The position numbers were made by a program, and so were the translations under genes. 64,000 nt of DNA, from NCBI GenBank assembly GCA_000002445.1, contig CP000067.1, positions 1,184,001 to 1,248,000 of the forward strand, given 5' to 3'. Positions within the stretch are counted from its first letter, which is position 1. Every line of letters begins with the position of its first letter. Positions 2,467-56,469 of the stretch are shown here, piece by piece. This stretch comes from Trypanosoma brucei. Its lineage: Eukaryota. Under the pieces are notes generated by a model. That model was not told where the DNA came from. It saw only the letters and a list, made by a program, of their open reading frames with translations, and searched no databases.

Positions 2467-2500
2467 GATACTGGTAACTCAACGTAATCCAACGTGAAAA

Positions 2501-7317: not shown

Positions 7318-7351
7318 GATACTGGTAACTCAACGTAATCCAACGTGAAAA

Positions 7352-7379
7352 CTACAAGACAAAAAGGGAATAATAACAA
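7352..7379 (-). promoter_or_regulatory. Candidate polypyrimidine tract plus AG trans-splice acceptor upstream of copy 1
   Basis: Same conserved spacer element as 2501-2528 (minus strand ttgttattattccctttttgtcttgtag). Confidence 0.35.
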
Positions 7380-31412: not shown

Positions 31413-31413
<1 letters not shown>

Positions 31414-31455
<42 letters not shown>

Positions 31456-31456
31456 T
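31414..31456. repeat. Compound microsatellite (TA)8(TG)14
   Basis: Read directly from the sequence. Confidence 0.95.
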
Positions 31457-31578
31457 TGTGCGTGTTCATGTGTGTATGCAGAAATAAAGCGATGAGATAC
31501 TGCACATGAACAAATACAGCGCATGAATATAAATACAGACATGTGTATAGACAAAAAAAAATGGAAACTCCAACAACT

Positions 31579-31610
31579 CCCCCCCCCCGCACACACACAC
31601 ACACACACAC
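31579..31610. repeat. C9 tract followed by (AC)10; inverted relative to the (TG)14 ~130 bp upstream
   Basis: Read directly from the sequence. Confidence 0.95.
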
Positions 31611-39146: not shown

Positions 39147-42100
39147 TCACCGTTGCTCAATTAGAAACAGACTGCAGTTGTCCATTCCGACACCTTCTTC
39201 GTTGTCTACTGGAGCCACGCACTGCGCGAAAATACCGGCGGCAGAGGTAAGAAGTAGCGCGTCAATTGAGGCCCCAGATGCTCCACCGTGACAGCACTTG
39301 CCGCCCCATACGTTATCAACAGTTTTGGATCCACCATTCTCACGTTCGCCATCTGCACCACAACGATATTTTTCTGTGTTAATATGACTTTTATCGCCCT
39401 CTTTTTGTGATGCATACGCCATCTCCCGCGCCCGGATAACTACCTCGGTGGCAGAGCTCGCCACTTCCAAGTCATTTGGCGTATTCATAATGGCATGATG
39501 GACCTGATGGGGAGTTAAAGTGTCCCACACCCCGTCACACGCCACAACGACGCCCCATCGACCCACTGCGGCAGCAGGTGGCACCGGCATAATCGTCACG
39601 TCAGGCACTGCAGTTACGGCTTGCTCCCGCGGACCACGGCCACCACACTGCTTAAAGTCGTAATCGCCCAATGCACGAGACACAGCCAATAGTCCCTCGA
39701 TGCGGTGCTCCACCAATGTGTATCCCGCAGCGTTAATACGAGCCCTTTCTCCTGGATCCGTTGTGCGGTGCGTGATGCTGATGGGTACTATATCTTGTGG
39801 TGTATAGAAGGCTGCACCGCTGTCCCCAATATTCGCGCATAGAATGAAGTTTGTTGTGATTCCCACGACGCAGGCTGTGCAGCCAGTGCAATTGTAGTCG
39901 CCACGGCGGCCTTCGTCGCTGCTCCGCAGCTCATCGTCGAGTGACAGAAGCGCCTCCTCCATTATGCCAGCAAAGTACAACCTGAGGGCCTCCATTTCAC
40001 GTCGGGAGACAGTTGGTGAGGCTGACAAACCATGACATGTGTCTGAAGTCTCCGAGTGGTCAGCGGCGCTTCCCCGAGCGACGGACTTGTCAGCGCTACC
40101 TTCCGTAAGTTGCCGCACCATTTCAACAGTTACGTTGGAGACTGAGCGGACACCAACGTCTCCCAATGCAGCGCCACTGTTAACATCATTGCTGCTGAGC
40201 TGAGGAAAACACCCGCTTTCCCGAGGCCGCAAGGGTGAGGCCTCGCTTACAGAGTACTGAGGTGTGGTCGACTCCTGATCCACGCGGCGGAGAACTGCAC
40301 TCGCCTCCGCCTCGTCGTGCCGCACTGAACATACTGCTTTGCGGAGGTGTGACTCAAACCGGCTTGCCGCCAGCTTTGCCACCGCATCACCACCATGTCC
40401 ATCAAAGACACAAAAAACTGCCATGGCCACAGCATCATTAGACTCGCGGGCCGCAATCGTTTCCTCCGCTTTATCGTCGTCGGCCCCTGTATCGGGTGTG
40501 TCAGAGAGGCAAGGTATGCTAATAACGAAGGCCGCCTCGGCATCCTCTTGTGTTGCACGCCAGCCTTGTACCTTCGCACCTAGTGAAATCAGCTTTGGTG
40601 CTGTCACACCCACGTGTAGAGTGTCTTCCATTGCGGAACAGCGAGGTAATGGTGATGCACTACCCACCAGCCTCGGGGAGCCCAAGCCGCATTCGATGGT
40701 GCCACTGATTGCCGCGCTACCACCTTCCGTGGGCGTTACGTCTTGACCCGCGTTTGGAGGATAAAAAAGTGCAATATCAGTCTGTAAGGCGTTACGGTTG
40801 ACAAGCGGACGATCCCGCAGTACAGAAGAATGGGCACTAGTACGGCCGCAGAATGAGGGCTGTGCCTCACCGTAGCACTTTATTTGTACCTCGTAACCTA
40901 CACAAGCAATATCACGCACAGGATCCTCAAGGTAGGTACCGCGTGTGGCTGCAAGTTGATCAACCAACGGGTCGTACACCTCTGTGTAGCGCCAGGTGAA
41001 GCTCTGGCACGGCTCGCACCAGTAAACACGGTCAAAACTTGTCATGATGTCGAGTATGTTGATAAACAGAGAGCATGCACCTACCGCATTGCGTCCTGTC
41101 TCCTCGTCATCCATGGTTTCACACACACTCGACGCCCCCCTCTTACTTTTACCCACTGCAGGAATGGAATCATTGTAGTGGCGTGTGACGTGGGAGGGGC
41201 ACAAAGCTGTGAGGCAGTGAAGGCAGAGAAAAGAAGCGGGCCTACGGTCACAGCATTTGCAATGGTGATACAGTTTGTGTGCGTGGTAGCGGCTGTAGTC
41301 CACACCACGAGCATCCTTTGTGATCAGCTGTTGAGTGCAAGTACACCGCGAGACGGATCCATCCTCCTCGTAGAATGCATTCCGATCCCGTGTGGAGTCC
41401 TTCTCCGTCCCATGGGATGGCAAAACTAATGTTGCATCCAACGTTCCCGACTCTTGGTTGCCGCCGTATCGCCAAAGCAACCCCTCAGTCTCTTCTCCTT
41501 CTTCCTCTTCTTGCCTCTTCTCAATTCCTTTCTGTTGTGCCTGCTGGGGACGTTCTTGTACAGCTGAATCTCTACTGACACCGATGTTGCTCCTTTCAAA
41601 ACTACACCGCGCTCCTTTGCCGCCTTCTGCCCTTCCATTAGGAGTCCCTGCTTTCAGAGGCTTATTCATGTACTTTTTCACTTCATCCTCCGCGGAGATA
41701 AGCATGACTCCCTTTTCTGCATTAAACAACAGCCGTGCAGCCACTTTGCAATCACTTTTGTCTTGGTCTTCCGTGGGAAAGAGGGGATACGATGTGGATA
41801 CCACGCCAAACGTGAAGCAGTCATCTTCCTCCGAAGCAATTATTGTTCCCACGTTGCTAACACTTTTCGTGTCTTCATTTGTGCTTGAGGACTGGCTTAG
41901 GCCCACACCTCCCTCCCTGGTGTGTCGCCTATCAGCCCTACCCGACCGACCACATGGGGAAGGATCGGCAGCTTTGGTTTCATCAGCACCACCTTCATCA
42001 CACTTCCTACACGAAGCAATAGTGTCCGGTGGAGCAGAGAGCACGCTCAGATTGAGACCGGAGCACACCGCACGCACAGTACTAAGTATCACCTCCGCTC

Positions 42101-43775
42101 GTGACCGTCCCTCTTTCAGTAGCTCATAGTGTGGAATGAAAACGTGCTCCTCCGTCTCGACAACTCCAACGCCCGACGTGAGACTGTGTGTGAGGGATTC
42201 GAGTCCTTCATCCGTTAACGAGCAGTCCGAGCTCCCAAGGCCAAACGGCTCGTCCACAGTTTCGTCATCCAGCGGTATTGATGGTTGCACCAGGAAGGGT
42301 AGCTGGTACTCCACCTTCAGTGGCTTCAGCATGGAGAAAAACAGGCTAGAAAACCCACTTCGCCTCCTGTTCCCGCGTGTTGCGGCAAGCGCCGAGCCTT
42401 CCTCAGCCGCCGGAAACTCCGCAGCAATTCTAGGCGAAATCGGTAGAAAGGAGAATACATCCCTGGCTTCTCCCTCGTTTCCTCCTGCCCCCACCCTATC
42501 ACCATAGTGTTTACCACCACCACCACCACCACACGATGGGTTCAGCCGCCCGCCCCCTTCATCTGTCATGGGAATGGATGCATCTACCACAGGCGGCAAC
42601 GTTTCGGCTGATGCTCTTGGGGCAGACCCTCGTCTCGTCGAACTAGCCCGTGGGAGCATCTTGTCCCGTCGACGCTCGCTGCTATTGTTGGTGTTATCCA
42701 ACTCTGTCCCTTCCGCCTCGCCATCCTTCCACTGCTCGCTGTGACAACAGTAGTTCACATAGTTCGCAGAGGGTGAAGCGGTGCCTGGAAGCAAAAGTGG
42801 TGGCGCCCCCGGTGGCAGTGGCGGTGCGAGTGCTCCTGTCTGAACGCGTGCTTTGAACTTGCGTTGATAATGTTTTTGTTGCCCTCCATCGTTGCTCGTC
42901 AGCGCATTCGCCGGCGTGTATGTGTTCGATTCGTTGCACGGCGGCTCTGCATCTCTACCACTACCTTCTTCCCCAGCAGAGACCGAATGATTGTTCGACA
43001 CGCTGGACCGTTGACGGTCCTTGAAGGACAGTTTCGACGTCTGTTTTCTCGCTGTCGTCTGCGACGTTCCCTGCTGTGTTCCAGTATATGTAGGCAACCG
43101 CAAGGGTTGGCCCTGAGTTCTACACCCACCGCCGCCATCGTCATTATTCATTGGACTTCCGTCCCCACTACGAACACTAGCACTAGAAGCAAGCCTCCAA
43201 CACGCGGTGCTGAAGCTCACGCTGAGGCTACCAGCATCCTTTGAGAGCTGCTGCGAAGTAACGCTTGAGCCACACAATGTTGCCGAGCGATCTGATTTTT
43301 CTCCCCTTGAAAAATTAGTCGACCGCAGACGATCTTTGAATGGCACAAACGTCCTTTGTGGTTGCTGCTGTTGTTGATCAGGTCCATCAATTGGTTTTGG
43401 TCCTGCAACTACTGGATCAAGAGTTACCGGGCACTGCGGCAGCTTAGCGGATGAAACGAAGCGCACGTGCATCAGCGGAAGAGTTACTGAGGGTTGCATC
43501 TGCTTATGGCAATCACTCGCCCCACGATTGAACCGTTCGGCCAGAGGACCGTGAAGTAACATCTGGGAAAGGGGTGTAGTTGGATTTGGTGGTGGTGTCG
43601 CACTGCGGCGGCGGGCGATGAGCAACTCATTTCCACGTGGTGAATATGGACTGCTTCCACTCGGAGTACGTTCAAATGCCTTGGGAGGTCTCCAATTTGG
43701 TATGGGTGTGAAAATATCACTACTGCTGCTTTCGGCGCTGTCAGCACCGGTACCTCCACCGCTATTAGAACTCAT
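39147..43775 (-). CDS. Large protein (1542 aa) with C-terminal PP2C-type Ser/Thr phosphatase domain (~39480-40430) and a long low-complexity N-terminal extension containing a Cys/His cluster
   Basis: PP2C motifs seen: VFCVFDGHGGD (~40385-40425), GCTACVVGI, ANIGDSGAAF, DHRTTDPGERARINAAGY...EGLLAVSRALGDYDFK, VVACDGVWDTL (~39525-39556). Cys cluster HHCKCCDRRPASFLCLHCLTALCPSH at ~41200-41290. Confidence 0.85.
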   Translation of the reverse strand: MSSNSGGGTGADSAESSSSDIFTPIPNWRPPKAFERTPSGSSPYSPRGNELLIARRRSATPPPNPTTPLSQMLLHGPLAERFNRGASDCHKQMQPSVTLPLMHVRFVSSAKLPQCPVTLDPVVAGPKPIDGPDQQQQQPQRTFVPFKDRLRSTNFSRGEKSDRSATLCGSSVTSQQLSKDAGSLSVSFSTACWRLASSASVRSGDGSPMNNDDGGGGCRTQGQPLRLPTYTGTQQGTSQTTARKQTSKLSFKDRQRSSVSNNHSVSAGEEGSGRDAEPPCNESNTYTPANALTSNDGGQQKHYQRKFKARVQTGALAPPLPPGAPPLLLPGTASPSANYVNYCCHSEQWKDGEAEGTELDNTNNSSERRRDKMLPRASSTRRGSAPRASAETLPPVVDASIPMTDEGGGRLNPSCGGGGGGKHYGDRVGAGGNEGEARDVFSFLPISPRIAAEFPAAEEGSALAATRGNRRRSGFSSLFFSMLKPLKVEYQLPFLVQPSIPLDDETVDEPFGLGSSDCSLTDEGLESLTHSLTSGVGVVETEEHVFIPHYELLKEGRSRAEVILSTVRAVCSGLNLSVLSAPPDTIASCRKCDEGGADETKAADPSPCGRSGRADRRHTREGGVGLSQSSSTNEDTKSVSNVGTIIASEEDDCFTFGVVSTSYPLFPTEDQDKSDCKVAARLLFNAEKGVMLISAEDEVKKYMNKPLKAGTPNGRAEGGKGARCSFERSNIGVSRDSAVQERPQQAQQKGIEKRQEEEEGEETEGLLWRYGGNQESGTLDATLVLPSHGTEKDSTRDRNAFYEEDGSVSRCTCTQQLITKDARGVDYSRYHAHKLYHHCKCCDRRPASFLCLHCLTALCPSHVTRHYNDSIPAVGKSKRGASSVCETMDDEETGRNAVGACSLFINILDIMTSFDRVYWCEPCQSFTWRYTEVYDPLVDQLAATRGTYLEDPVRDIACVGYEVQIKCYGEAQPSFCGRTSAHSSVLRDRPLVNRNALQTDIALFYPPNAGQDVTPTEGGSAAISGTIECGLGSPRLVGSASPLPRCSAMEDTLHVGVTAPKLISLGAKVQGWRATQEDAEAAFVISIPCLSDTPDTGADDDKAEETIAARESNDAVAMAVFCVFDGHGGDAVAKLAASRFESHLRKAVCSVRHDEAEASAVLRRVDQESTTPQYSVSEASPLRPRESGCFPQLSSNDVNSGAALGDVGVRSVSNVTVEMVRQLTEGSADKSVARGSAADHSETSDTCHGLSASPTVSRREMEALRLYFAGIMEEALLSLDDELRSSDEGRRGDYNCTGCTACVVGITTNFILCANIGDSGAAFYTPQDIVPISITHRTTDPGERARINAAGYTLVEHRIEGLLAVSRALGDYDFKQCGGRGPREQAVTAVPDVTIMPVPPAAAVGRWGVVVACDGVWDTLTPHQVHHAIMNTPNDLEVASSATEVVIRAREMAYASQKEGDKSHINTEKYRCGADGERENGGSKTVDNVWGGKCCHGGASGASIDALLLTSAAGIFAQCVAPVDNEEGVGMDNCSLFLIEQR

Positions 43776-43899
43776 ATGCTACGCAGCGGCCCTAAATGAT
43801 GCAGGTCAATAAACGAATTCACGGACACGTAAACCAACCGCTTCAGATTCTGGCCAGCCTTTGTGAGGCCACGTGTCCACGCCCTCTGCAACTATTTTT

Positions 43900-46800
43900 C
43901 TCCTCGTCGACTACTTCCGGAACAACACTTATATATATATATATATATATATATAAGCTACTCCAACTATCCGCCTTGCCCTTTCCCCCACACCCTTCCG
44001 ATGTCGCAGCCAATATTGTTGTTTTCCTCGTGGTACTCTTAATCGAGTTCACTATACCTGAACAAATGTTTGGATATGGTGTGAACGCAGTCAAGAACAC
44101 AACGAAAGAAAAAATTCCCCTTTCCCTGGACTTTACGTATTAATACTTTGCTCCCTAATGTACCACACCAATTGCTTATTCCTATCCAAAGTAAATATAT
44201 GTATATGTGTGTGCGTGCGTGCGTGCGACTTCTTTGTTGTTTTTTTTATTTTCCTTCTTCTCGTTTCTCCTTCTTATTCCCGTCTTCCTGTGTTGTGTTG
44301 TATAGTCGTGTTCTTTTTTTTTTTTTTACCCAATCTGGGGTGGCTGGCAATGCGGCGCGGTGCCGCAATCCAAACACACTTCTATTCTCACTCGAGCAAA
44401 GTCTCTTGTTTTTCTTTTTTTTTCCCCCCCCGCTCTTCCCTTTGCTCAAACGAGTTTCACAAAAACACACACACACACGCACACACACACACTTCTGCTG
44501 CTTCCTTCTCCAGCAGCTTAAATGAATTTATTTGTACTTTATCAAGTTGTAATAATATTCCTGAGTCCTCCTACCTTCTTTTTTTCTTGTTCTTGTTGAG
44601 GTGTTCCTCTCCCTTTGATGCTTTCAATTTCAGTACCGGCGCCGTGATTGTGGCGGTAGGGGAGGAGAAGTAGAAGGGTGAACAAATTGATAAAATAAAA
44701 ATAAAATAAAAATAAAAATAAAACAGGAAAAGACAACAAAGTGCCTCTTCTCTCTGTCGTGTCACACTACACTTGTTGCTTACACACGCAGTTCAATGTG
44801 GCGCAAAAAAAAAATTAATTAATTAATTAATTAATTAAATAAAATTTTAAAAAAATGATAAAGATAAGAAACAATAGAAATAAAGATAAAAGTGAAATGA
44901 AGATTCAGAGATGAGATGAGATGAGATGAAAGCAACAACTCAACCGCTAGTTGAGGTGAAAATATTCACAAAAGAGGGAAGTGATGTTGATGGTTTTTAA
45001 GTCGTATCAAATGACACACAATCATGGAAATAAATACATAAAGATGTATGAATATGAGCGTATGTGTTTTGTTTCGAAAGAAGGAAAAATAAAAATAAAA
45101 ATAAAAGAAGGGAGAGTGTTGTAAAGGTCCCAATGGAAACCTTCATTACAGAAAGTTTTTTTTTTTTGGAAATATTGGTGGGTTACATATAAAAAAAATA
45201 TGTGTATGCTATTTAAAAAACAAACAAACAAACGGAGCGAAGGATTCACGATGCCGCTGGTACTAAAGTCCTGCAAGGGCTTCACACGATACGAAAGCAT
45301 GGGAAGAAAAATAAAATAAATAGAAATATATATATATGTTTGCGAGAAATCAATTGCTACTTTTTAGTTTTTCTGGAGTAATGACACTTTGCGAATGAAT
45401 CAAATAAAATCACTTCTTCTCACTGCAGCTTCCGACTGCTTTTTGTTTGTTTGTTTATTTTTGTTGTATATATATATATATATATTTTATGTGGTTATCC
45501 GCTAACGATATTTTTCATTTGCTCAACCCTAAACTAAATGTTACACCTTGATTCTCTTCATTTCATCTTGAAATGTTGGAATGCGATCCCTTTACACCTT
45601 TTTTGCTTCAGGTTGCAGCGTCCTCACATCATCGGCTCTCGTTTTTGTTTTTGTTTTGAAGGAAGAGGAGGAAGAGGAGGAGGAGGAGGAGGAAAAAAAG
45701 AAGGGAATAAATTCTTTTTTTTCTTTAAAAAAAAAAAGGACTCTTCACTTATTTAGCTGTTGCTTCCTTCTTTTTTTTCCTTTATTTCCTTTTCTTTCTT
45801 CCTCCTCCTTCCAATCCCGTTTCCTTCACTTTAACTGCTCATATACTTACCTTGCTTCTAAACCTACAAATACGTATAGAAAACAACAACAACAACAACA
45901 GCAGCAAAAAAAAAAAAAAGGAGAGGGGGGTGGTTGTGGTGGTGGTGGTGGGACAGAAAGTCACATGCAAAGAAGGAAAGTGATAGAAAGTGATAGAAAG
46001 AAGGCAAAAATGCCAACGTATACAAACACACAAATATGCAAATACATATGTTTTTTTTTTCTGCAAATAACTATAAGGACGTATATGTATATGTGTAAAT
46101 GTGTCCAATTATGGAGAAAAAGCGAAGTGGAGTTGTTGTTGTTTTTTTTTTTGATTGTAACACTCTCCACAAAAGTAATAATGTTATCGTTGGAAAACGG
46201 ATATGACACTCACTTATAAAAATGGCCCAGTTTTACACATTTGTGTTCCTCGAGCTTCTTTCGTATTTTTTCGTATTTTATTTTCTTTCCTTTTTTTTTC
46301 CATCGTTTTTGCCTTATTGCTCTGATGTTTGTCCATGACATGACGTATTTTCCCTTCTTTACTTTACTTTTACCTTTGCGTCTTTTTTCTTTTCTTTTCT
46401 TTTTTGTATTTTTTAATTTATTCCTTTTTTTTTTTGCCTTTTTGCGTTCCTCTGTAACCAATCGCTCATTTAAACAGACAATGCGCCAATTAATGCAATG
46501 AAAAAAAAAAGAAGGGGAAGGGGAGGGGGGGAAGAAAAAATGAATAGAAAGTAAAGATGAAACAAAACAAATTAAGAAAAACAAAAACAAAAGCAAAAAC
46601 AAAAACATAAACATAAAAAAAAGTGAGCGTTTAAGGAAAGAAAAGAGTTCGTTTCTTTGCCTTCACCACTCGCTTTTTTTTTTTTGCAATCAGTCACTTC
46701 AGTTACATTTGGTTCAGGATGCCAAATTCCTGAGATGCTTTGTTGTTATTGTTATTGTTGTCTTTGTTGTTATTGTTGTTGTTGTTTCCCCCTCTTTTTA

Positions 46801-49800
46801 TTCTTTATTTTTTTTTAAAAAAAATGTTATTTACTTTAAAATGTGCACTTGCAAGTAATATAAAAAACAGAACTTAATATAACGAAGAAGGAAAAAAAAA
46901 AAATGCAGCAATAGCGGTCGACACTGGAGTTTCCTCCTGTTCTCCACCATTCGACTGTTGTTACTGCCTTCAAACTCTCATCTCCAACAAGCCCATGTCC
47001 TCCTTTTTTTTTTGTTTTTTGAAAAAAAAAAAGTATAAACGTATCCAATAATAATTATAATAACAGAAGAAGCAGAAGCATCAATAATAATAATAATACT
47101 CATAGTAATGGTAATAATCTTCATCATAATGCATGTAACAGTTTAAAATACCGTCGATCACCACATAATATCACTGAAAGCCAACAAATTTGAATAATAA
47201 ACATTTGACACACATTAAAAAAACAAAAAAAACAAAAAACTCCTCAATAACACGCCGCCATCTCCATTTCCATCCACTCATTTCCCCCTTTTCAATCAGT
47301 TCAAATAATTTTTTTTTCCTCTTTTTCAACCCGTCCCTTTTTCTTCATCCCTCACTTTCCAACTATTCATATGAAAAGTATATGTAAGTAATATAAATAT
47401 TAATTAATAAAGGCGGTGTTGTTGACGAGTAAAGTAAAAAAATTTGAAATAAGGAAAACAAAAGCAAAAACAAAAAAAGAGAGACACAAAAGGAGAAAAC
47501 ACATGTGCTCATATATGTGGGAGATTACAAATATTTTAAAAATTATAGCAACTTAAAACAGTCAAAATAATGGCGTGGCACTTCGTGAGCGCTTCGGCTC
47601 AAGTTCTTTTTACGAAACAAAAAGATGGTGTTTTGCGTGTGAAATACGTTCCCCCTTTTTTTTTCTTGTTTTTTTTTCTTTTTGAACTTTCCTCTTTAAA
47701 CGGCAGCACAAAGCAAAAAAGAAAGAAAAAAGAAAAAAAAGAAAAAACAAGAACGCAATATATATAAATATATGGTATATAAAATATATAATTTATATAC
47801 ACTTTCATGTGTGTTCATTTCTTTATTTATTGCTGGAGCACAGAACCCCTCCCGGCGGTTTAATTTTACCCCACTCTTGTTGTAATGTTTTTTTTTATTT
47901 ATTTATTATCATATTTTTTTTTCTCCTCTTTTTTTTTCTTTTTTTTTTGTCCTCCCTCTCTCTCTCTCTCTCTTGCGTTTTTGACATCGGACATCACTCT
48001 ATAGTTAAATATTTGCCGTAATACAATGAAACAAAACAAACAAACAAAGAGCAAAAGATGAAGCATAATAATAATAATAATAATTTTTAAAAAAATGAAA
48101 ATAAAAATAAAACCGTCCACTGGGGTAAAAAAAAAAAACAAAAAGAAAACACACATAATAATAATAATAATAACAATGATGATGATGACGACAGTCAAGC
48201 AACAAATATTCACTTTTTATGAAAAATATAAGCTGAAGTTGTTTTTTTTTTCTTCCCTCTTCACCTATTTTTTTTTGTTGTTCTTGCACGTGTCATTGGC
48301 CTCATGCAACGAGATACAAAACAAAACAAAAAACAAAAGAGAGGAAAACACAAGGAGTTGTAAAGGAAAAAAAAAATTTAAACAGCTGGGAAAAACAAAA
48401 AAACAAAAGGTACAAATGGGTAAAATGTCCCCCATATTAATTTATTTGTATTTATTTGAAAATTCTTAAAATATAAATACAAAAATATTTCTCTTTTTTC
48501 TTTTTTCTTTCTTATTTTTCTTTCTTTCGCGTTTTACATCAGCTTCACACACGTGTACATGCCTCAGAATGTTTCATATAAATATTTGAGTTCAAATTCT
48601 TTTCCCTCTCTTCTCTTTTCTTCTCTTCATTTTTCTTTGTTTTTTTTTTCCACGGGTATATGTTTTTTTCTTTAATAATAATGGCAATAGTTTGGTTAAT
48701 TTAAAGAAAAAAAATGAAAAGAAAAGGGATCGGCAGCGTTGTGTGTTTATTGTTTATTTATTATTATTTTTTTCCTTCACTGAATGTAAATAAATATAAA
48801 TGCATATGAATGTTGTATATATATATATATTCGTCGAAGAAAAAACAGAAAGAACAACAACAACAATAATAATAATAATAAAGGACAAGAAACCATATCC
48901 TTTTATTCGTTTATTTCAGATATTGTTACCTTCAATAGCGATTCGCTGTCACGGAATATGCACTACTGATTTTCCTTTTTTTTTCTGAATTCTGTAAAGT
49001 CGTTTCCGCTGCTGTAATTATTACCATATTTTTTTTCTTCATATTTATTTATTTTCACTTTTTTTTTCTGTGAAATTATTATTGTTATGATTATTATCAC
49101 TCCGCCATGCCACGGTGCGGCAGGGAAAACAAAAGATGAAAGGATATATAAATATATAAATAATGAAAAGTACGACACTGAATATGAGAATTCAGTGTTA
49201 AAGCACCCAATCATACAAATATATTTAATTATATTTAATTATTTATATATTCCCTTTTATTCAGCGAGAAATAAAAGTCAAAAAAAAAACATTGGCGCGA
49301 AGCACTTCACTTTGTGCTACCCCTTATTTTTTTCTCAGCCCCTACGTTTTATTTCTTGTTTTCTCACTTATTTATTTGCTTATTTGATTGTTCTCTTACC
49401 GTTTCTTTATTTATCACTCTTACAAATATATATATATATATATATAGAAATATATATATTAAAAATTCAAAGCAGTCATCATCATCATCATAATAATAAT
49501 CATCGTTGCTATATATTTTTTATTTTTATTTTTATCCGCAGTGATAACTTCTGACACCACAATATTGAAATCAAATAATATTCAAAGTATAAACCCGCAC
49601 TTTCCTCCTTCTCCTCCTCCTCCTCCTCCATTCCTCCTTGTTGTTTTTTCTCATATAATTACGCTCATAACGAGATTTTGTCACAATGAAAACCCTCTTG
49701 GTTTTATAACAGTAGCAATAACAATAATAATAATAAAGACATTGTTATTATTATTGTTATTATTATTAATCATCATCATCTTTATTGTTGTCGTTTTTAT

Positions 49801-52800
49801 TGTCACTTACAGTCAGTGCTGCCGTTTCCGCTCATATCCCAATCATTGTGACGATGGTAATATGGCTTCCAAACAATACACGAAGAGAAGAAAAAAAGGA
49901 AGTAATAATAACAATAACAATAATAATAATAATTAAAAAAAATTAAAAAGAAAACATAAAACGCTGAACCCAAACAAACAAACACTCACAGTGAGTCAAA
50001 CATACAATAGAGGAAAAAAATGAATTTAAAATAATCAACCAAACGATCAAGCTTTAAAGTTGAAGTGATAAAAAGTCAGAAAAAAAGGGGTGAAGATCGG
50101 GAATGAGTAATAGTAATAATATTTATTATTATTAAATAATTAAAAAAAAAAGAGATAAAATGTTGGAAATTAAAGAAGCAATCGCAACCTGCTGATGGTA
50201 TTATTTGCACAACATCACTTCACTCATTCACACACCGATTCCCCAAATATGTGTAAATTTATTTATTTATTTATATATATATATATATTTATTTATATAC
50301 GTGTGTGTGTGTGTGTGTAGTAATGCTCAAGTATAATAATGAAACATACCAAAGGAAACAAATGGGTAAACAATCAACGAAAAGTATAATAAAAAGAGGG
50401 GGAAACAACAACAACACAACACAACACAATACAAAAAAAAACAGAAGATGATTGAGCGTATATAAATAAATATGTGTTTATTTTGTATATTTGTGAAATA
50501 ATGGCAAAAATGTATTAAAGGGAAACCACATGCCATTGGCGTCCCTTTCACCCAACATTTGGTTTATAACCTCTCATTTTTCCGCATGTTCTTAATTATT
50601 TCCTCTTTTATTTGCTTTTCCTTTCCTTTCCTTTCCTTTCTTCTTTTGCTTCTTTTTTTTTTACAAAAAAAAAAGAAAATTATTTTCTCTCCTTCTCTTT
50701 TTTGTTATTACTCGTTTCATCAACATCACATCAAATCATACCGCTCTTAATTTCATCATATCATTTATTACAAAATCCTCTTCCACACACGTACATAATC
50801 ATATATATATTATATATTATATAATATATATATATTCATCTATTTATATTCTTTTTCGTTCTTTAAAAAAAAAAAAACACTTGCACGCCTCATTTGCACA
50901 GAAAATACACAAAAAAACGAATAGTCATGCGAGAGTTGGAGGGGAGGGGGAAAAAAAAAAGTCATTGGATGGGGAGGAAAAGTAAATGAAATGAAATGAA
51001 TTTGTGAAGTGAAAAGAAAATGGAAAAGGAAAAATAACCATCACGTCATATATTCAGTAAGGCAAAAAGAAAAAAAAAAGAAAAACAAACACACACAAAA
51101 GGTGAGAAAAGAACAACATGTGCATAAGATAATAATTCATACAAATGAAATTGGGCGCAGAAGTCCGAGGAATGGGCCCTTAATAATTTCAAGAAGCATA
51201 AAAACAAACCAAAAGATAATAATAAAAAACACGGACTAAAAAAAAGAAGAAAAAAAAAGAAAAAAAAAAGAGGCGACTCAACAAGTCATAAATACAGAAG
51301 CGCGCATGTATGTTGAGACAAGGCCTGACAAAAAAAGAAAAAAAGACCCGTAAAAAAAAAAAATTGAAAAAGAGAGAAAGAGAGAGAGAGAGAGAAAAGA
51401 GGAAACGGGTACGGGTACGGACTGCATTTATTTATTTATTTATTTGTTTTACAGAAACTCAACTAGTCAAAGAGAAACTAAACAGTTGAATGAGCGAGAC
51501 TGTTGGACACGTGTGAAGCCCATACGAATAGATAAGTATACAAAAATACAAATATATTTATATATATATTTGTATTTATATTAATGAATCTGTGGTATAA
51601 ATATGTTTTCGTTACCGCTGTTCAGTTTCCTTTCGCAAAGTAGCGAACAAAGAAAAGACATAAGTACAGCAAGTGGTTAATAATAATGGTTCAATTTTTC
51701 ATTTCTTTTTATTTTTATTTTTCTTGGCACTCTTATTTTCTTTTCGTCAACTGTCATTATTTGTTGTTATTGTTATTGTTATTGTTATTATTATTATTGT
51801 TATTTTTTTCGTTGTTCCTCTTCTTTGTTGGATTTCCTTTCTCTTTTTGTTTCTCTTTTTTTATTTTATTTTTCGCCTCCTCTCCCCTCTAACCTCTTTT
51901 CTTTATTTATTTATTTTTTGTTCCTCGTCGACTTACTTAAGCCAATGGTCAGATCTCCTGTAATAAACAACAACAACAACAGCAACACCAATAATAATAA
52001 TAATAATAACTTCAAAACAAAAACGAAAAAAACAAAAACAAAACAAAACAAAACAACTTTTCTTCCCTTCTTCAATTCAACTCTCATTCTTTTTTTTTTT
52101 TAGAACCTTCCGGACGCGGCCGAAAAGATCAACAACGAGAAGAAAAAAAGAAAGAAAGAAAAAAAAAATTTACCTCTCGCCACATGAGCACATATTTATG
52201 AAACAAACACGCGCACACAGAAAAAAAAAAGTAGGTTGTGTACCGGGTTATTTAATTACACCATTGGAACAAAAGAAAGTAACGAAATGCAGAAAAAAAA
52301 AAGAAATAAATAAAGGAATAAAAGAAAAGATGAGGGGTGGGGATGGGCGTATTTGTGTTTAAAAAAAAAAACACACACACACACACACACACAAACTTTC
52401 TTCTTTTTTTTTTCTTTTTGTCCTCATGTTCGTGCGTCTGTTTCATGTACTTCAATCAACGTATACATGATGTTTGTTTATTTGTTTGTTTTGTTTCTTT
52501 TTTTTTCTTTCCTTTCCCTTCATTTGTTTATTTATTTATGTTTATTTTACTTATTTATTTGTAATTGCTTGTTTGGATGCGTATTGTCTTTTTTTTCCCC
52601 CTCCCTTCCTCCTTTAATAAATAAATATAAATATATATGTATGTATATATGTATATTTCCCTCTTCTTCTTCTTTTTTTCTTTTTCTTTTTCTTTTACTT
52701 TTCTTCTTATTTAGGGTCATAAGTTCTTATTTATTTATTACTTCAGCTTCACAGAGCTTTTCTTTTTCTTTTTTTGTTTTGTTTTCAAATCCCCCTTTGT

Positions 52801-54397
52801 GATTTAAGCTTGTTTTTTTTTTTAAAGTTTTGTGTGCACTTCCTTAATCCAAACATGGTTATCAATATCATAAAATTTTAATGAAAAAACAGAAACATAA
52901 ATAATAAAGAAAAATAATATATATATATATATTATTATTATTATTATTTCCCCGTCCCCCACTCCTCCTTTTGTCAGTTGTTTTTATTTTTATTTTTATT
53001 TTTTTGTCTCCGCCCCTTTTTCTTTTTTTTTTTCAAAAAAACAAAAAAACAAAAAACAAAAAATTCCTTTTTGCGGTACCAACCCGATGGTGACGCACCA
53101 CACATACAAAAATACACAAATAATAATAATAATAAAGGAAATGATGGAAGCGTTGAAAAATGAGATAAGATAAAAACAAAACAAAAAATTAAAAAAAATG
53201 AATTTTTCATGCACCAAAATTCAACGAATTAAATAGAAGGCTCAAACTAAAAACTAAAAACTAAAACTAAAAACAATAGCGTAGCATAGCATAGCAAAAA
53301 AGAAAAAAAAAGCAAGCGATGGGGCAACAACCGAAAAAAAAAAACAGAAAAAAAACAAATGGAAATGAAAATGGAAATCTTGAGAGGAGACGTGGCGGCT
53401 ACATGCGGTTTGACGGCCACCATGTAATGTAATGTAATTTTATTTTATTTTATTATTTTTTAAAAAAAAAACTCTCCTTTACTCGCTTTCCAAAGCTTTC
53501 CTTTTTCGCCCCTTTTCCCTCCGTTCCATTTCTCCTTTTTTTTTTTAATAATATTAATATTTATTATTTATTATTGTCTCATGATGCCGTGCATTAAACT
53601 GATAACATGTTAATGCAAACAAAAACAAAATAACGGCTGAGAGCATTGCGACAAGGGAAATCGGGAGGAGGGGGAAAAATAAATCGTGTGAAATATTAAA
53701 GAATCAAATAACAAAAAAAAACAAAAAAATGTAGAAGGGAGACATAACACGTGGCAAGTTAAAACAAAGCAAAAGCAAAAACAAAGATAAATAACAATAA
53801 CAATAACAATAATAATAATAGAAAAAAAGAGAAAACGCGTCAATGCATGAAGGGAGGAAACCCACGACAGTACGCATAAAAAAAAAAAGTAAAAGGTAAA
53901 CGAAAAAATGAGGAATAATAATTTCACAATCGCAAAGAAAAAAAAAGGAAAAATGGCAGGGGAGCTAAATAGGGGAAATGGATGAGTAATAATAATAACA
54001 ACAACTTCCCCTTCTACCCTCCCCTCCTCCTCCTTCTCCGGGAATAAAAAAGGCTGATAAATAAAACACAAATAAGCGCAAATAAACAAGGAAAGAGACG
54101 ACATACAGGAAACAAAACAGAATCCAACAAAAAAAACACAAAAGATGAAGGTATGTTTTGCTTTCCCTTCTCTATTTTCTCACGCCTTATGTTTTTTCTC
54201 CCCTTTTTCATTTTTTTAAAAAATTTTCTCCATTGCCTTCTTTTGTTACCTCCACCACTTTTGTATCTACTTACTTGGCAGTTAACGCTGTTATTTCCCT
54301 CCCTTCGGCGTTCGTCCGCATCTTCTTTTTCCTTTCCTTTCCTTTCCTTTTTTTCGTTGTTTCCTGTTCTCCCCTCTTTCACTCTTCCTTGTTTTTT

Positions 54398-54433
<36 letters not shown>

Positions 54434-54900
54434 TTATTTATTTATTTATTTCCCCCCTTCCCCTTCAGTTATTAATCATTTTTGTTCCTTTTGAGCATTT
54501 TACTTTCCTTTCTTCACCCCACTCCACCCCAACATTCACACACTCATATATATATATATATATATATGTACACGTACCCGCTTTAAAAACCAAACGAGGT
54601 TTGCGCCGGCATAATACCACGGGTAGATTACAAAGGAATCTGTTCTTTTTTGTTTTTGTTTATTTGCTTGTTTTTTATTTTCCTTTTTGTCATGAAGGCG
54701 TGTGTATGTGTGCACATACGCGGAAGAGTAGGTGAAGAAAGGAAAGGAGGGGATAAGGGTATAACGAAAAATGAAAAAAAAATGTGGGAGGAGATAACAC
54801 CACGTAGGTTGCGAGGGGTTTCGAAACTGTTCCTTTCGTCAGCCAGTAACAACGTGAACAGCGAAGATAATCGTGACCTAGCAAAGTAGGGAAAAGTATT
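43900..54900. repeat. ~11 kb AT-rich low-complexity gene desert. Alternating homopurine and homopyrimidine blocks; dense mono-, di-, tri- and tetranucleotide microsatellites of several motifs.
   Basis: No ORF longer than ~170 aa on either strand, and those present encode only F/L/K/N-rich low-complexity peptides. Composition visibly shifts to A+T. Simple repeats throughout. Confidence 0.85.
54402..54451. repeat. (AT)14 followed by (TTTA)6 compound microsatellite
   Basis: Read directly from the sequence. Confidence 0.9.
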
Positions 54901-54954
54901 GAAATACAAAATTAGAAAGACAATGTCGATGATGGAAGAAAACAAGAAATTCAC

Positions 54955-56469
54955 TCAATTGTCATCAAAGCTACCAAATGGCCTGTGTCCATTGATGTTT
55001 GTAGCCGAAAACCCCCAAGAGGCGGTTACTTTGGCATCAACGCCCAAGTTAGCAGACTCAGAAATTGTTGCAACGTCATCTGATGGGGCGGTGAATGAGA
55101 GGTTGTGGCATTGAGTCACAACATCATCTGCCCTCTCAACCTGGCAGCCATCACCGTTGATATCTCTTCCAGATGTTATATTTGTTTGCCCCGCGTTATC
55201 GTAGTCCACATCACTTATATCGTTGAGGGGCGCTTCAGGCACAACACCAGCGTCAGAAGCAAATTGCTCGGCAATGGACGCACCGACGTGTTCCATAGGT
55301 ATACTAGAGTGAGTGATATCTCCACCGAAATCATCGCAGCCTTCAGCATCGTAGCCATTTTCAAACACACCGCACTTTTGATCCTTCAGGTCTTGCGGAA
55401 GGAAGAACTCAGAGGGTACTGCTTGCACCACTTCTGATGACGAGACTCGCGCTTCTTCTCCCTCCCCCGCTGGTGTCGATGGCAACACCGGTCGTGCGGT
55501 GGCGAGAAGTTGAACAGAAACGGCCTGATTGGCATCTTTACCCGGAAGTTTTCCAACACGGAAGGCTACGCGGTCACCTGCGCTGAGTGCGCGGAAGCCA
55601 TGCATTCGGATGTACGACTGGTGCACAAAAACATCGCCGACAGCCACTGGTGTCCTCTCTAGAGTGGGTTGCGGTGGTGTGGTTTGCTGCTGCTGCTGTG
55701 ACCTGCCGTCAGCATTACCATCACTGAAAGTCCCACTACCTCCACTAGGCGAAGTAACTTGTAGATGATGCGTTGCCGTAAGAAAGCCGAAGCCACGCAT
55801 CGGGTTGTATCGCTTAACAATCCCTTCGTACCACTCGCCAAGACCGTACATCATTCCATTGCCATGCCTGCTCACTACAGCGGCTATCGGTGGCGGTGGT
55901 GGTGGTGGTGGCGCTGGTGCTAACGCGACTCCGGGTTGTAGTGCTGCTGGTGTTGACCCGTGAGATAATACCACATAAACGGACGGCGAAGGAGGTGGTG
56001 GCATTAAGTTCCAAGGGCACGGTGAGACGGTGGCCGGCGGCATGGGGCTGGCATTGCCGGGGCCGCTGATACCGCCACCCCCACCAAGCGAATGATATTG
56101 CGGATGTTGAGGGTGGAGCGGAAAGGCATTTCCAGCGTTACCACCAGCGATCAGAAGCTTTTCGACGCTGTGAAAAACGGCTGGGCTGCCGGCATTGGTT
56201 GGTTGTGCACTTGGAGCGCTACCGTTGAGGTTTAGCGATGTCGAAGGCACAGAACCTTGTGAGTGCGGCGGCGGCGGCGAAGTCAACTTCGCAAACGGAC
56301 CGTCTGCCCGCGTAACTCGAATGAGCTGACGCGACGGAAGTGCCATCAGTGGTTGCGGTCCTGGCGAGGTGCTCAGCGGAGCACTGGTCGATGCGGTGAG
56401 GGGGTTGACGGTATTCAAGGAAGCTACAAGAACGCCGTCGTGAGTGCATACAGTGGGATGGAAGAGCAT
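54955..56469 (-). CDS. Cold-shock-domain (CSD) nucleic-acid-binding protein, 504 aa. CSD at ~55504-55845, flanked by Pro-rich and Gln-rich low-complexity regions.
   Basis: GEWYEGIVKRYNPMRGFGFL...GDVFVHQSYIRMHGFRALSAGDRVAFRV matches the CSD consensus (G-VKWFN-KGFGFI...DVFVH-S-I...GF-SL-EG--V-F). The correct start Met is uncertain. Confidence 0.75.
   Translation of the reverse strand: MLFHPTVCTHDGVLVASLNTVNPLTASTSAPLSTSPGPQPLMALPSRQLIRVTRADGPFAKLTSPPPPHSQGSVPSTSLNLNGSAPSAQPTNAGSPAVFHSVEKLLIAGGNAGNAFPLHPQHPQYHSLGGGGGISGPGNASPMPPATVSPCPWNLMPPPPSPSVYVVLSHGSTPAALQPGVALAPAPPPPPPPPIAAVVSRHGNGMMYGLGEWYEGIVKRYNPMRGFGFLTATHHLQVTSPSGGSGTFSDGNADGRSQQQQQTTPPQPTLERTPVAVGDVFVHQSYIRMHGFRALSAGDRVAFRVGKLPGKDANQAVSVQLLATARPVLPSTPAGEGEEARVSSSEVVQAVPSEFFLPQDLKDQKCGVFENGYDAEGCDDFGGDITHSSIPMEHVGASIAEQFASDAGVVPEAPLNDISDVDYDNAGQTNITSGRDINGDGCQVERADDVVTQCHNLSFTAPSDDVATISESANLGVDAKVTASWGFSATNINGHRPFGSFDDN

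What the first reader, a model, noticed from the sequence alone, without database searches (positions are those of the whole stretch)
43900..54900. An 11 kb AT-rich, ORF-free low-complexity tract inside a unidirectional gene cluster
No ORF of meaningful complexity exists on either strand between the PP2C gene start (43775) and the CSD gene stop (54955), in a genome where neighbouring intergenic regions are 0.5-3 kb.

The tract is not a single satellite. It is a patchwork of homopurine and homopyrimidine runs and many short repeats:
- (AAAAT)n at ~44690
- (TTAA)n at ~44815
- (GAGAT)4 at ~44908
- (GGA)n at ~45672
- (CAA)n at ~45886
- (AAT)n at ~47080 and ~48066
- (GTTATT)n at ~51760
- (AC)n at ~44465 and ~52371
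- (AT)n at several sites

Possibilities:
- an exceptionally long 3 prime UTR of the upstream CSD RNA-binding protein gene plus the 5 prime UTR of the PP2C gene. Long multi-kb 3 prime UTRs are characteristic of regulatory RNA-binding protein genes in T. brucei.
- a structural or chromatin region, for example a replication origin or transcription pause region.
- a decayed ancient insertion.

ATTTA-type repeats are mostly on the plus strand, i.e. not in sense orientation for a minus-strand mRNA, which argues against simple ARE function.
Basis: partly seen in the sequence, partly recalled or inferred. Interest (0 to 1): 0.62.

Follow-up and report, generated by a model that had tools for sequence, protein, structure and literature searches.

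The report
Giant 3' UTR of trypanosome CSD2
The 11 kb gene-free, AT-rich stretch is real, but about 80% of it is the already annotated 8.9 kb 3' untranslated region of the Trypanosoma brucei CSD2 regulator gene, an extreme example of a known class of very long regulatory mRNA tails.

Summary
Window 43776-54954 is 11,179 bp of 31% GC, low-complexity DNA with no credible gene on either strand. All annotated genes around it lie on the minus strand.

The window matches T. brucei TREU927 chromosome 4, about 1,184,001-1,248,000. The upstream gene is CSD2 (Tb927.4.4520), a cold-shock-domain RNA-binding protein needed for metacyclogenesis. The downstream gene is the PP2C Tb927.4.4510.

A published dataset (Trenaman 2024) lists the CSD2 3'-UTR as Tb927_04 1230025-1238954, which is window 46025-54954 (8,930 nt). 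That end lies about 95 nt upstream of a strong sense-strand polypyrimidine tract followed by AG, as the trypanosome processing rule predicts. The remaining 2.25 kb holds splice signals and probably the PP2C 5'-UTR.

On the sense strand the tract is packed with A-rich polypurine tracts, U-rich polypyrimidine tracts and (AU)n palindromes. This is the signature of the described long "P5" 3'-UTRs.

The tract is collinear in three Trypanozoon assemblies. It evolves like non-coding DNA.

A 4.5 to 11 kb gene-free region follows the CSD gene in every trypanosomatid examined, without sequence conservation.

I found no support for a chromatin element, a decayed gene or an assembly artefact. Verdict: real, already known, of modest interest.

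The parts
54955..56469 (-). [quoted passage not shown]
   Evidence: Pfam CSD at E = 3e-11. The protein is 100% identical to T. brucei TREU927 XP_844601.1. It is named CSD2 = Tb927.4.4520 in PMC7952579.
46025..54954 (-). Annotated 3'-UTR of CSD2, 8,930 nt: AT-rich, dense in polypurine and polypyrimidine tracts and (AU)n palindromes
   Evidence: UTR_Start/UTR_End are 1230025-1238954 (minus strand) in Supplementary Data 1 of PMC11405848. The offset of 1,184,000 was checked on a second gene, Tb927.4.4480. On the sense strand there are 43 polypurine and 36 polypyrimidine 9-mers per kb, z = 33 and 27 against shuffles.
45656..46012 (-). Cluster of sense-strand polypyrimidine tracts with downstream AG dinucleotides. 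This is the likely processing signal that sets the annotated CSD2 poly(A) site and the most distal candidate trans-splice acceptor for the downstream RNA.
   Evidence: Polypyrimidine tracts at 46012-45967, 45932-45897 (includes U14) and 45713-45656. The first AGs are at 45864 and 45638. In T. brucei the poly(A) site lies about 100 nt upstream of the active tract (PMC6597758). The distance from 46025 to 45930 is 95 nt.
43776..46024 (-). The remaining 2,249 bp: a processing spacer plus the probable PP2C 5'-UTR (between 262 and about 2,090 nt, depending on which acceptor is used), or a separate non-coding RNA
   Evidence: The tolerant scan found ten sense polypyrimidine blocks from 46012 to 44093, in seven polypyrimidine-AG groups. 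The most proximal is 44114-44093 with AGs at 44058, 44052 and 44038. Which site is used cannot be decided from sequence.
39147..43775 (-). PP2C phosphatase gene (Tb927.4.4510), the next gene in the transcription unit
   Evidence: Pfam PP2C at E = 4e-34. The GenBank TREU927 protein of 1,471 aa is an exact suffix of this ORF, starting at Met72.
45645..45835 (-). Long purine:pyrimidine hairpin in which a (GGA)n-type purine arm pairs with a (UCC)n-type pyrimidine arm
   Evidence: MFE -60.4 kcal/mol, z = -3.4. It is also hit, far below threshold, by generic plant miRNA-precursor models on both strands.
47640..47765 (-). U-tract:A-tract hairpin inside the 3'-UTR
   Evidence: MFE -32.6 kcal/mol, z = -3.4. 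None of 200 shuffles folded as well.
48727..50068 (-). Published reporter-assay fragment peak_751, fully inside the UTR, scored 'increased' in the positive selection arm (weak: low read counts)
   Evidence: PMC11405848 Supplementary Data 1: 1232727-1234068, p = 0.042, FDR 0.072.
54094..55409 (-). Published reporter-assay fragment peak_752, covering the first 860 nt of the UTR plus the end of the coding sequence, scored 'increased'
   Evidence: PMC11405848 Supplementary Data 1: 1238094-1239409, log2 fold change 2.4, FDR 0.052.

Best explanation
**What it is.** The tract is not a separate genomic element. About 80% of it (46025-54954, minus strand) is the 8.9 kb 3'-untranslated region of the CSD2 (Tb927.4.4520) mRNA. 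CSD2 is a cold-shock-domain RNA-binding protein that controls development to the infective metacyclic form. The last 2.25 kb (43776-46024) carries the polypyrimidine/AG signals that couple CSD2 polyadenylation to trans-splicing of the next RNA. It probably also carries the PP2C 5'-UTR.

**How it is made (established knowledge plus inference).** RNA polymerase II reads through the whole unit right to left. The poly(A) site is placed about 100 nt upstream of the polypyrimidine tract at 45932-45906. The 20-odd internal polypyrimidine tracts must be ignored or masked.

**How it most likely works (inferred by analogy).** The UTR is a post-transcriptional control module of the long 'P5-UTR' kind.
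- Many A-rich polypurine tracts promote translation.
- U-rich polypyrimidine tracts and (AU)n palindromes can pair with them and mask them.
- Many redundant binding sites for RNA-binding proteins give robust stage-specific expression. [quoted passage not shown]

**Shown and inferred.**
- Shown here: the anatomy, the absence of genes, the signals at the 3' end, conservation between assemblies, and the composition.
- Taken from the literature: the UTR coordinates, the reporter-assay signal and the expression bias.
- Inferred: the regulatory mechanism.
For: **Identity**
- Flanking genes were identified.
- UTR coordinates come from PMC11405848. The offset was verified on a second gene, and the TREU927 PP2C protein is an exact suffix of the window ORF.

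**3' end**
- The annotated end lies 95 nt upstream of a C6UCUCCU14 tract whose next AG is at 45864.
- This matches the roughly 100 nt rule.

**No genes or known RNAs**
- ORF tests were negative.
- There is no tRNA and no Rfam match at gathering score.

**Real and non-coding**
- The tract is collinear in T. b. gambiense (11,322 bp) and T. b. equiperdum.
- Against gambiense it shows 2.5% substitutions and 9.9 gap openings per kb. The flanking coding sequences show 0.7-1.2% and 0.2-0.7.

**Class features**
- Polypurine and polypyrimidine tracts are enriched at z about 30, with the highest combined density in the window (polypurine is highest by far; polypyrimidine is marginally above the PP2C 3' region).
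- Mean folding z is -1.76 in 300-nt windows, against -0.36 in the other 3' regions of the window.
- 14% of predicted pairs join a purine run to a pyrimidine run, against 3.6% expected.
- These match the published descriptions of long UTRs rich in both tract types and of P5-UTRs.
- Long UTRs are typical of mRNAs for RNA-binding proteins.

**Comparative**
- The gene-free gap downstream of the CSD gene is the largest gap in every locus fetched.
- T. congolense: 6.8 kb.
- T. brucei paralogue CSD1: 7.4 kb.
- T. conorhini: 5.5 kb.
- T. rangeli: 4.5 kb.
- T. vivax: at least 4.7 kb.
- Leptomonas: 9.9 kb.
- Leishmania martiniquensis: at least 10 kb.

**Expression**
- CSD2 mRNA is 3.8-fold higher in bloodstream forms.
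Against: - No transcript data could be examined here. That one mRNA spans all 8.9 kb rests on coordinates copied from a published table, whose own evidence I could not inspect.
- The UTR holds 22 sense-strand pyrimidine runs of 14 nt or more (28 in the whole tract), each followed by AG. Shorter isoforms or internal non-coding RNAs are therefore plausible.
- The reporter-assay signals for the two fragments are modest, with FDR 0.05-0.07 and low read counts for one of them.
- CSD2 was not found in the stored part of the thermo-sensing supplement, and that file was cut when stored.
- The excess of folding stability over shuffles is partly a trivial result of having A-runs, U-runs and (AU)n in one sequence.
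- Orthology of the Leishmaniinae CSD genes rests on best hits only.
Confidence: 0.82

Rival explanations
1. The tract is a mosaic of several RNAs rather than one UTR. CSD2 mRNAs mostly end at internal poly(A) sites set by internal polypyrimidine tracts. The distal parts, especially 43.8-46.0 kb, give separate trans-spliced long non-coding RNAs.
For: - There are 28 sense pyrimidine runs of 14 nt or more followed by AG across the tract, and ten blocks in seven polypyrimidine-AG groups in the last 2.3 kb.
- Alternative processing inside long 3'-UTRs is documented for RBP10 and DRBD12.
- More than a thousand lncRNAs are described in T. brucei.
Against: - The published annotation gives a single 8.9 kb UTR.
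- Neither flanking gene ID appears in the supplement of the nanopore lncRNA paper. That supplement could be searched by gene ID only.
- This rival partly overlaps the main explanation rather than replacing it.
Confidence: 0.25
2. The tract is a chromatin or DNA-level element inside the transcription unit: a replication origin, a polymerase pause or termination zone (base J, H3.V), or centromere-like DNA.
For: - It has unusually low GC (26-30% over 7 kb).
- It is rich in homopurine/homopyrimidine and (AT)n tracts that can form non-B DNA.
Against: - All nine large genes of the window are on the minus strand, so there is no strand switch.
- There is no long-period tandem array. The largest TRF period listed in the tract is 27 nt (34 rows were not shown), and there is no large repeat family other than low complexity.
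- The same composition is found downstream of the paralogue CSD1, which points to a gene-linked property.
- The published annotation treats the region as transcribed UTR.
Confidence: 0.05
3. The tract is largely the decayed remains of a lost gene or an old insertion. A candidate is the FYVE-PH-kinase gene that sits between CSD and PP2C in T. conorhini and T. rangeli.
For: - That kinase gene is present at this position in two stercorarian trypanosomes and absent in T. brucei and T. congolense.
- The T. brucei interval is the longest of all. The distance from CSD stop to PP2C start is 11.2 kb, against 9.3, 7.7 and 6.8 kb.
Against: - tblastn of both kinase proteins against the window found nothing better than E = 0.7, and no hit fell inside the tract.
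- No Pfam domain was found in the ten longest ORFs.
- The part next to the CSD gene is already 4.5-5.5 kb long in the species that keep the kinase.
- The chromosome 8 paralogue shows no PP2C remnant either.
Confidence: 0.05
4. The tract is an assembly artefact made of collapsed or mis-joined simple repeats.
For: The short-read T. equiperdum OVI contig stops about 520 bp after the CSD2 stop codon, which shows the tract is hard to assemble.
Against: Two further independent assemblies, T. b. gambiense DAL972 and T. b. equiperdum GCA_003543875, are collinear with the window. They are 92-96% identical to it and differ only by small microsatellite indels. Interval length is 11,322 bp in gambiense against 11,179 bp here.
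Confidence: 0.01

Closest known systems
RBP10 (Tb927.8.2780) 7.3 kb 3'-UTR, and other very long 3'-UTRs of T. brucei mRNAs for RNA-binding proteins (DRBD12, ZC3H22)
   Same: - It sits directly downstream of a gene for a developmental RNA-binding protein.
- It is multi-kilobase and contains many internal polypyrimidine tracts.
- The mRNA is stage-biased towards bloodstream forms, like RBP10.
- The class is described in PMC8982893 and PMC9380746.
   Different: - The annotated length (8.9 kb) exceeds that of RBP10.
- No dissection of this UTR has been published, so no regulatory element is mapped.
- Dependence on DRBD18 or ZC3H28 is unknown, because those supplements are not held.
[quoted passage not shown]
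   Same: - All the compositional criteria are met, and strongly: A-rich polypurine tracts, U-rich polypyrimidine tracts, (AU)n palindromes and great length.
- Two fragments scored as positive regulators in the reporter assay.
   Different: The functional hallmark is transcript abundance that responds to temperature and depends on AGO1. This was not shown for CSD2 in the material I could read.
3' region of the paralogue CSD1 (Tb927.8.7820) on the chromosome 4/8 duplicon
   Same: - It follows a paralogous gene (44% protein identity).
- The downstream gene-free gap is 7.4 kb at 29.8% GC, with the same kind of purine/pyrimidine-run and tandem-repeat content.
   Different: - Its annotated UTR is only 3,259 nt.
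- The two tracts share no alignable sequence beyond low complexity.
- The PP2C gene has been lost from chromosome 8.

Membership tests
Very long regulatory 3'-UTR of a trypanosome RNA-binding-protein mRNA | Lies directly 3' of the stop codon of an RNA-binding-protein gene, on the sense strand, inside a polycistronic unit | tested here: met
   The CSD2 stop codon is at 54955 and all neighbouring genes are on the minus strand. seCLIP data for CSD1 are quoted; the section title of PMC10270622 names both CSD1 and CSD2 as RNA-binding proteins.
Very long regulatory 3'-UTR of a trypanosome RNA-binding-protein mRNA | No intervening protein-coding or known RNA gene | tested here: met
   ORF, Pfam, GC3 and frame-conservation tests were negative. 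No tRNA. No Rfam match at gathering score. Sub-threshold Rfam hits are generic hairpins.
Very long regulatory 3'-UTR of a trypanosome RNA-binding-protein mRNA | 3' end placed about 100 nt upstream of an active polypyrimidine tract followed by an AG acceptor | tested here: met
   The annotated end is at 46025. The tract at 45930-45906 begins 95 nt downstream, with an AG at 45864. The rule is quoted.
Very long regulatory 3'-UTR of a trypanosome RNA-binding-protein mRNA | Present in the mature polyadenylated mRNA over its whole length | not testable with these tools
   Only the coordinates in PMC11405848 Supplementary Data 1 are available. No read data or Northern blot could be examined.
Very long regulatory 3'-UTR of a trypanosome RNA-binding-protein mRNA | Confers regulation on a reporter | not testable with these tools
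   Published reporter assay: two fragments scored 'increased', with FDR 0.052 and 0.072. This is suggestive only.
P5-UTR (poly-purine, poly-pyrimidine, palindromic) | Long UTR enriched in A-rich polypurine tracts and U-rich polypyrimidine tracts on the sense strand | tested here: met
   386 polypurine and 325 polypyrimidine 9-mer windows, against 42 and 45 in shuffles. The combined density is the highest in the window: polypurine 43.2 per kb is the highest, and polypyrimidine 36.4 per kb is marginally above the PP2C 3' region at 34.3.
P5-UTR (poly-purine, poly-pyrimidine, palindromic) | Palindromic tracts and potential for internal pairing | tested here: met
   (AT)n arrays at 49426, 50801 and 54400, among others. 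Folding z of -1.76 against -0.36 elsewhere. Purine-run:pyrimidine-run pairs are 14% of predicted pairs against 3.6% expected. Two hairpins with z = -3.4.
P5-UTR (poly-purine, poly-pyrimidine, palindromic) | Transcript abundance responds to temperature in an AGO1-dependent way | not tested
   Tb927.4.4520 was not found in the stored (cut) supplement of the 2026 preprint.
Centromeric or satellite DNA | Long arrays of a long-period AT-rich tandem repeat | tested here: not met
   The largest TRF period listed in the tract is 27 nt and the arrays are under 100 bp (34 rows were not shown). No large direct-repeat family was found other than low complexity.
Strand-switch region, origin or termination zone | Lies between divergent or convergent transcription units, with ORC, base J or H3.V marks | tested here: not met
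   Gene orientation is uniform across the 64 kb. The chromatin marks cannot be tested with these tools.
Degenerate gene or retroelement | Detectable coding remnants | tested here: not met
   tblastn with the syntenic kinase and with PP2C found nothing. Pfam on the ten longest ORFs found nothing.

The most novel reading that the evidence does not exclude
A very long, compositionally odd non-coding tail downstream of this CSD gene has been kept across Trypanosomatidae. It measures 4.5-11 kb in six Trypanosoma loci and about 10 kb in Leptomonas and Leishmania, and it is the largest gap in every locus fetched. No primary sequence is conserved, not even between the two T. brucei paralogues. This would mean selection acts on length and low-complexity architecture rather than on discrete motifs. 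One possible reading is an RNA-structure-based (temperature or dsRNA/AGO1) sensor that sets the dose of a cold-shock-domain master regulator of developmental transitions.
Probability: 0.15. Interest if true: 0.55.

Novelty: already known. Interest (0 to 1): 0.25.

Why it matters
CSD2 is one of the few proteins known to be required for the first step of T. brucei development towards the infective metacyclic form. Its own control is unstudied.

Its mRNA carries one of the longest annotated 3'-UTRs in the genome. A paralogue and distant orthologues keep similarly long tails. Together these features make it a convenient natural test case for an open question in the trypanosome field: why do mRNAs for regulators have such long UTRs? 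The current proposals are fail-safe redundancy, dosage of polypurine tracts, and structural or thermal sensing.

For a genome scan the lesson is practical. In kinetoplastids, multi-kilobase AT-rich ORF-free tracts inside a transcription unit are normally UTRs.

Tried and rejected
**Calls that failed or returned nothing**
I scanned the ten longest ORFs instead.
- The first folding script timed out. It was rerun with smaller windows.
- The TREU927 PP2C protein is not indexed for locus retrieval. TREU927 DNA was therefore not fetched; identity rests on exact protein matches and on coordinate offsets.
- Supplements of four relevant papers are not held: DRBD18 (two papers), ZC3H28 and the grumpy lncRNA paper.
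- The supplement of the nanopore lncRNA paper does not mention either flanking gene.

**Searches for known RNAs**
- Rfam at gathering score and the tRNA scan found nothing.
- The permissive Rfam search gave only sub-threshold plant miRNA-precursor and similar hits at two purine:pyrimidine hairpins. I treat these as generic hairpin matches.

**Searches for coding remnants and conserved sequence**
- tblastn for remnants of the syntenic FYVE-PH-kinase and of PP2C found nothing.
- blastn between the CSD2 tract and the CSD1, T. congolense, T. vivax, T. conorhini, T. rangeli and Leishmania tracts gave only low-complexity matches.
- A 309-aa ORF in the T. conorhini gap is not conserved in T. rangeli and looks spurious.

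**RBP10 motif**
- The RBP10 motif UA(U)6 is absent from the sense strand of the UTR: 0 copies, against 13 on the antisense strand and 5.3 in shuffles.
- This would fit a bloodstream-biased mRNA.
- However, single-A permutations of the motif occur only 3-5 times, and the gambiense tract has 3 copies. I treat the depletion as weak.
Full report
**1.

The minus-strand PP2C ORF begins at 43775 and the minus-strand CSD ORF ends at 54955. Between them lie 11,179 bp with 31.1% GC, falling to 26-30% from 47 to 54 kb. The eight other intergenic regions of the window are 558-3,807 bp long with 35-45% GC, and the coding sequences have 44-55% GC.

TRF arrays cover 29% of the tract, against 0-13% of the other intergenic regions and 1-2% of coding sequence. 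On the sense (minus) strand, purine runs of 10 nt or more cover 12% and pyrimidine runs 9%. That is 6-7 times the level in dinucleotide-preserving shuffles. The other intergenic regions show the same kind of enrichment at a mostly lower level.

The tract is therefore an exaggerated version of ordinary T. brucei non-coding sequence. It is not a different kind of sequence.

**2. No genes are hidden in it**

- The longest ORF is 212 aa on the antisense strand and 164 aa on the sense strand.
- The ten longest ORFs have no Pfam hit better than E = 0.02, all far below the cut-offs.
- Their translations are low-complexity, and their GC3 is 0.24-0.48 against 0.49-0.53 for the real genes.
- The frame is broken in T. 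b. gambiense and/or T. b. equiperdum for all but two overlapping antisense ORFs, 44158-44673 and 44148-44525.
- The T. b. gambiense annotation places two small opposite-strand ORFs (99 and 85 aa, no Pfam) in the tract. They map to about the same places as two of these spurious ORFs.
- There are no tRNAs and no Rfam matches at gathering score.
- A permissive Rfam search gave only sub-threshold matches of plant miRNA-precursor models at two hairpins.

**3. What the locus is**

- The CSD protein is 100% identical to T. brucei TREU927 XP_844601.1. It is CSD2, Tb927.4.4520 (PMC7952579).
- CSD2 is a cold-shock-domain protein, described as RNA-binding in PMC10270622. Its knock-down gave the strongest block of RBP6-driven development towards metacyclic forms.
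- The GenBank TREU927 PP2C protein (1,471 aa) is an exact suffix of the window's 1,542-aa ORF.
- Supplementary Data 1 of Trenaman et al. 2024 (PMC11405848) has explicit UTR_Start and UTR_End columns. It lists the 3'-UTR of Tb927.4.4520 as Tb927_04_v5.1:1230025-1238954 on the minus strand.
- With the CSD2 stop codon at window 54955, the offset is exactly 1,184,000. The same offset puts the listed 3'-UTR of Tb927.4.4480 (1200168-1203923) right against the stop codon of the ORF at 19924.
- The window is therefore chromosome 4, about 1,184,001-1,248,000. The annotated CSD2 3'-UTR is window 46025-54954, or 8,930 nt. That is 80% of the tract.

**4. The sequence supports that 3' end**

T. brucei has no poly(A) signal. 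The cleavage site is measured about 100 nt upstream of the polypyrimidine tract that is used for trans-splicing of the next RNA (PMC6597758).

On the sense strand, a C6UCUCCU14 tract lies at 45930-45906. It starts 95 nt downstream of the annotated end, and its first AG is at 45864. A 50-nt tract follows at 45707-45658, with an AG at 45638.

Further polypyrimidine-AG groups continue down to 44114-44093, with AGs at 44058-44038. The PP2C 5'-UTR could therefore be anything from about 262 to about 2,090 nt. Alternatively, part of 43.8-46.0 kb could be a separate non-coding RNA. Sequence alone cannot decide this.

The whole tract holds 28 sense pyrimidine runs of 14 nt or more followed by AG (22 of them inside the UTR). 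This is the situation described for RBP10 and DRBD12, where DRBD18 suppresses internal sites.

**5. It is real DNA and it evolves as non-coding DNA**

T. b. gambiense DAL972 and a T. b. equiperdum chromosome-level assembly are collinear with the window across the interval. The gambiense interval is 11,322 bp.

Against gambiense, the tract shows 2.5% substitutions and 9.9 gap openings per kb. The two flanking coding sequences show 0.7-1.2% and 0.2-0.7. A short-read T. equiperdum contig ends about 520 bp into the tract, which shows only that the tract is hard to assemble.

**6. Class features and likely mechanism**

The literature describes the following.
- Median T. brucei 3'-UTR length is 400-500 nt, with about 6% above 2 kb.
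- The longest UTRs tend to belong to mRNAs for RNA-binding proteins and kinases.
- The 7.3 kb RBP10 UTR holds at least six independent regulatory segments, and a 'fail-safe' role was proposed for this redundancy (PMC8982893).
- A genome-scale reporter assay linked A-rich polypurine tracts to increased translation. It also found that long UTRs rich in both polypurine and polypyrimidine tracts often show increased translation in bloodstream forms, and it proposed masking by base pairing (PMC11405848).
[quoted passage not shown] It reports that their abundance responds to temperature in an AGO1-dependent way.

The CSD2 UTR fits that description by sequence.
- There are 386 polypurine and 325 polypyrimidine 9-mer windows on the sense strand, against 42 and 45 in shuffles. 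The combined density is the highest in the window; the polypyrimidine density alone is only marginally above that of the PP2C 3' region.
- Several (AU)n arrays are present.
- Mean folding z is -1.76 over 29 windows of 300 nt, against -0.36 for 45 windows from the other 3' regions.
- 14% of predicted base pairs join a purine run to a pyrimidine run, against 3.6% expected.
- Two explicit hairpins have z = -3.4.

Published functional data are thin.
- Two fragments (window 48727-50068 and 54094-55409) scored 'increased' in the reporter assay, at FDR 0.07 and 0.05.

The regulatory mechanism I propose is an inference by analogy. It has three parts: translation enhancement that scales with the number of polypurine tracts, masking by polypyrimidine and palindromic tracts, and redundant protein-binding sites. 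None of this has been shown for this UTR.

**7. Comparative result**

This was the only new information I could add.

| Locus | Gene-free gap after the CSD gene | Other gaps in the same locus |
|---|---|---|
| T. brucei CSD2 (window) | 11.2 kb | 0.56-3.8 kb |
| T. brucei CSD1 (chromosome 8 paralogue) | 7.4 kb, 29.8% GC | about 1.0-2.1 kb |
| T. congolense | 6.8 kb to PP2C | none |
| T. conorhini | 5.5 kb | 0.4-1.7 kb |
| T. rangeli | 4.5 kb | 0.1-1.6 kb |
| T. vivax | at least 4.7 kb (contig end) | about 0.6-0.7 kb |
| Leptomonas pyrrhocoris | 9.9 kb | 3.0 and 4.9 kb |
| Leishmania martiniquensis | at least 10 kb | 3.0 kb |

- In T. conorhini and T. rangeli the gap ends at a FYVE-PH-kinase gene that precedes PP2C.
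- In Leishmania martiniquensis no ORF in the gap exceeds 207 aa, and GC is about 51% against 62-64% in the CSD coding sequence.
- In every locus fetched, the gap after the CSD gene is the largest. Its GC is 9-25 points below that of the coding sequence.
- No primary sequence is shared, not even between the two T. brucei paralogues. This agrees with Jackson 2007, who found little or no affinity between the intergenic regions of the two duplicons.
- Orthology outside Trypanosoma rests on best hits only.

**8. Rivals**

- A mosaic of shorter isoforms and non-coding RNAs is plausible. It is partly compatible with the main reading.
- A chromatin or origin element has no sequence support. There is no strand switch and no satellite. 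The relevant ChIP data cannot be examined here.
- A decayed gene is not supported.
- An assembly artefact is excluded by the collinear independent assemblies.

**9. Verdict**

The tract is an already annotated, exceptionally long 3'-UTR of a known developmental regulator. It belongs by sequence to a described class. It is a good specimen rather than a discovery, so interest is low to moderate.

Noticed in passing
window 1-16116: Tandem array of receptor-type adenylate cyclase (GRESAG4) genes with a unit of about 4.43 kb: three full copies plus a partial one at the window start. Long stretches are 92-99% identical between copies, and the 558-bp spacers have identical composition.
   Followed up: partly
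L001 (T. equiperdum OVI contig CZPT02001165.1), 10559-11076: This short-read contig ends about 520 bp after the CSD2 stop codon. The AT-rich low-complexity tract breaks that assembly.
   Followed up: no
L002 17169-17468 and 18132-18389 (about window 49.0-49.3 kb and 48.1-48.3 kb, plus strand): The T. b. gambiense annotation carries two small ORFs (99 and 85 aa) inside the tract, on the strand opposite to transcription. They have no Pfam hit. The corresponding window ORFs are low-complexity and their frames are not conserved, so they are probably spurious gene models.
   Followed up: partly
L008 16784-18847; L009 15896-17968: A FYVE-PH-protein-kinase gene lies between the CSD and PP2C genes in T. 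conorhini and T. rangeli. It is absent from this position in T. brucei and T. congolense, and tblastn detects no remnant.
   Followed up: partly
L005 11516-18922 (T. b. gambiense chromosome 8): The paralogue CSD1 is followed by a 7.4 kb, 29.8% GC, gene-free tract. The PP2C gene is missing from this duplicon and no remnant is detectable. The annotated CSD1 3'-UTR is only 3.26 kb, so about 4 kb there is unassigned.
   Followed up: partly
window 43562-43775: Start-codon discrepancy for PP2C. The GenBank TREU927 protein (1,471 aa) begins at Met72 of the 1,542-aa ORF. The gambiense and equiperdum models use the longer form.
   Followed up: partly
window 46025-54954, minus strand: The RBP10 recognition motif UA(U)6 is absent from the sense strand of the 8.9 kb UTR. 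There are 13 copies on the antisense strand and 5.3 in shuffles. This would fit the bloodstream-form bias of the mRNA. The evidence is weak, because related 8-mers occur only 3-5 times and the gambiense tract has 3 copies.
   Followed up: yes
window 44158-44673, plus strand: An antisense 171-aa ORF stays open in T. b. gambiense despite 16 mismatches and 24 gap columns. Its translation is F/L/C-rich low complexity with no Pfam hit. This is probably a chance effect of a pyrimidine-rich strand.
   Followed up: partly
window 31345-32043 and 18956-19438, minus strand: ORFs of 232 aa (TTG start) and 160 aa (GTG start) lie in two other intergenic regions of the window. They were not examined.
   Followed up: no
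L012 5084-10000; L010 6959-10000: In Leptomonas and Leishmania the region upstream of the CSD gene is also long (4.9 and 3.0 kb). The whole neighbourhood may be gene-poor there, which would weaken the specificity of the long downstream gap.
   Followed up: no
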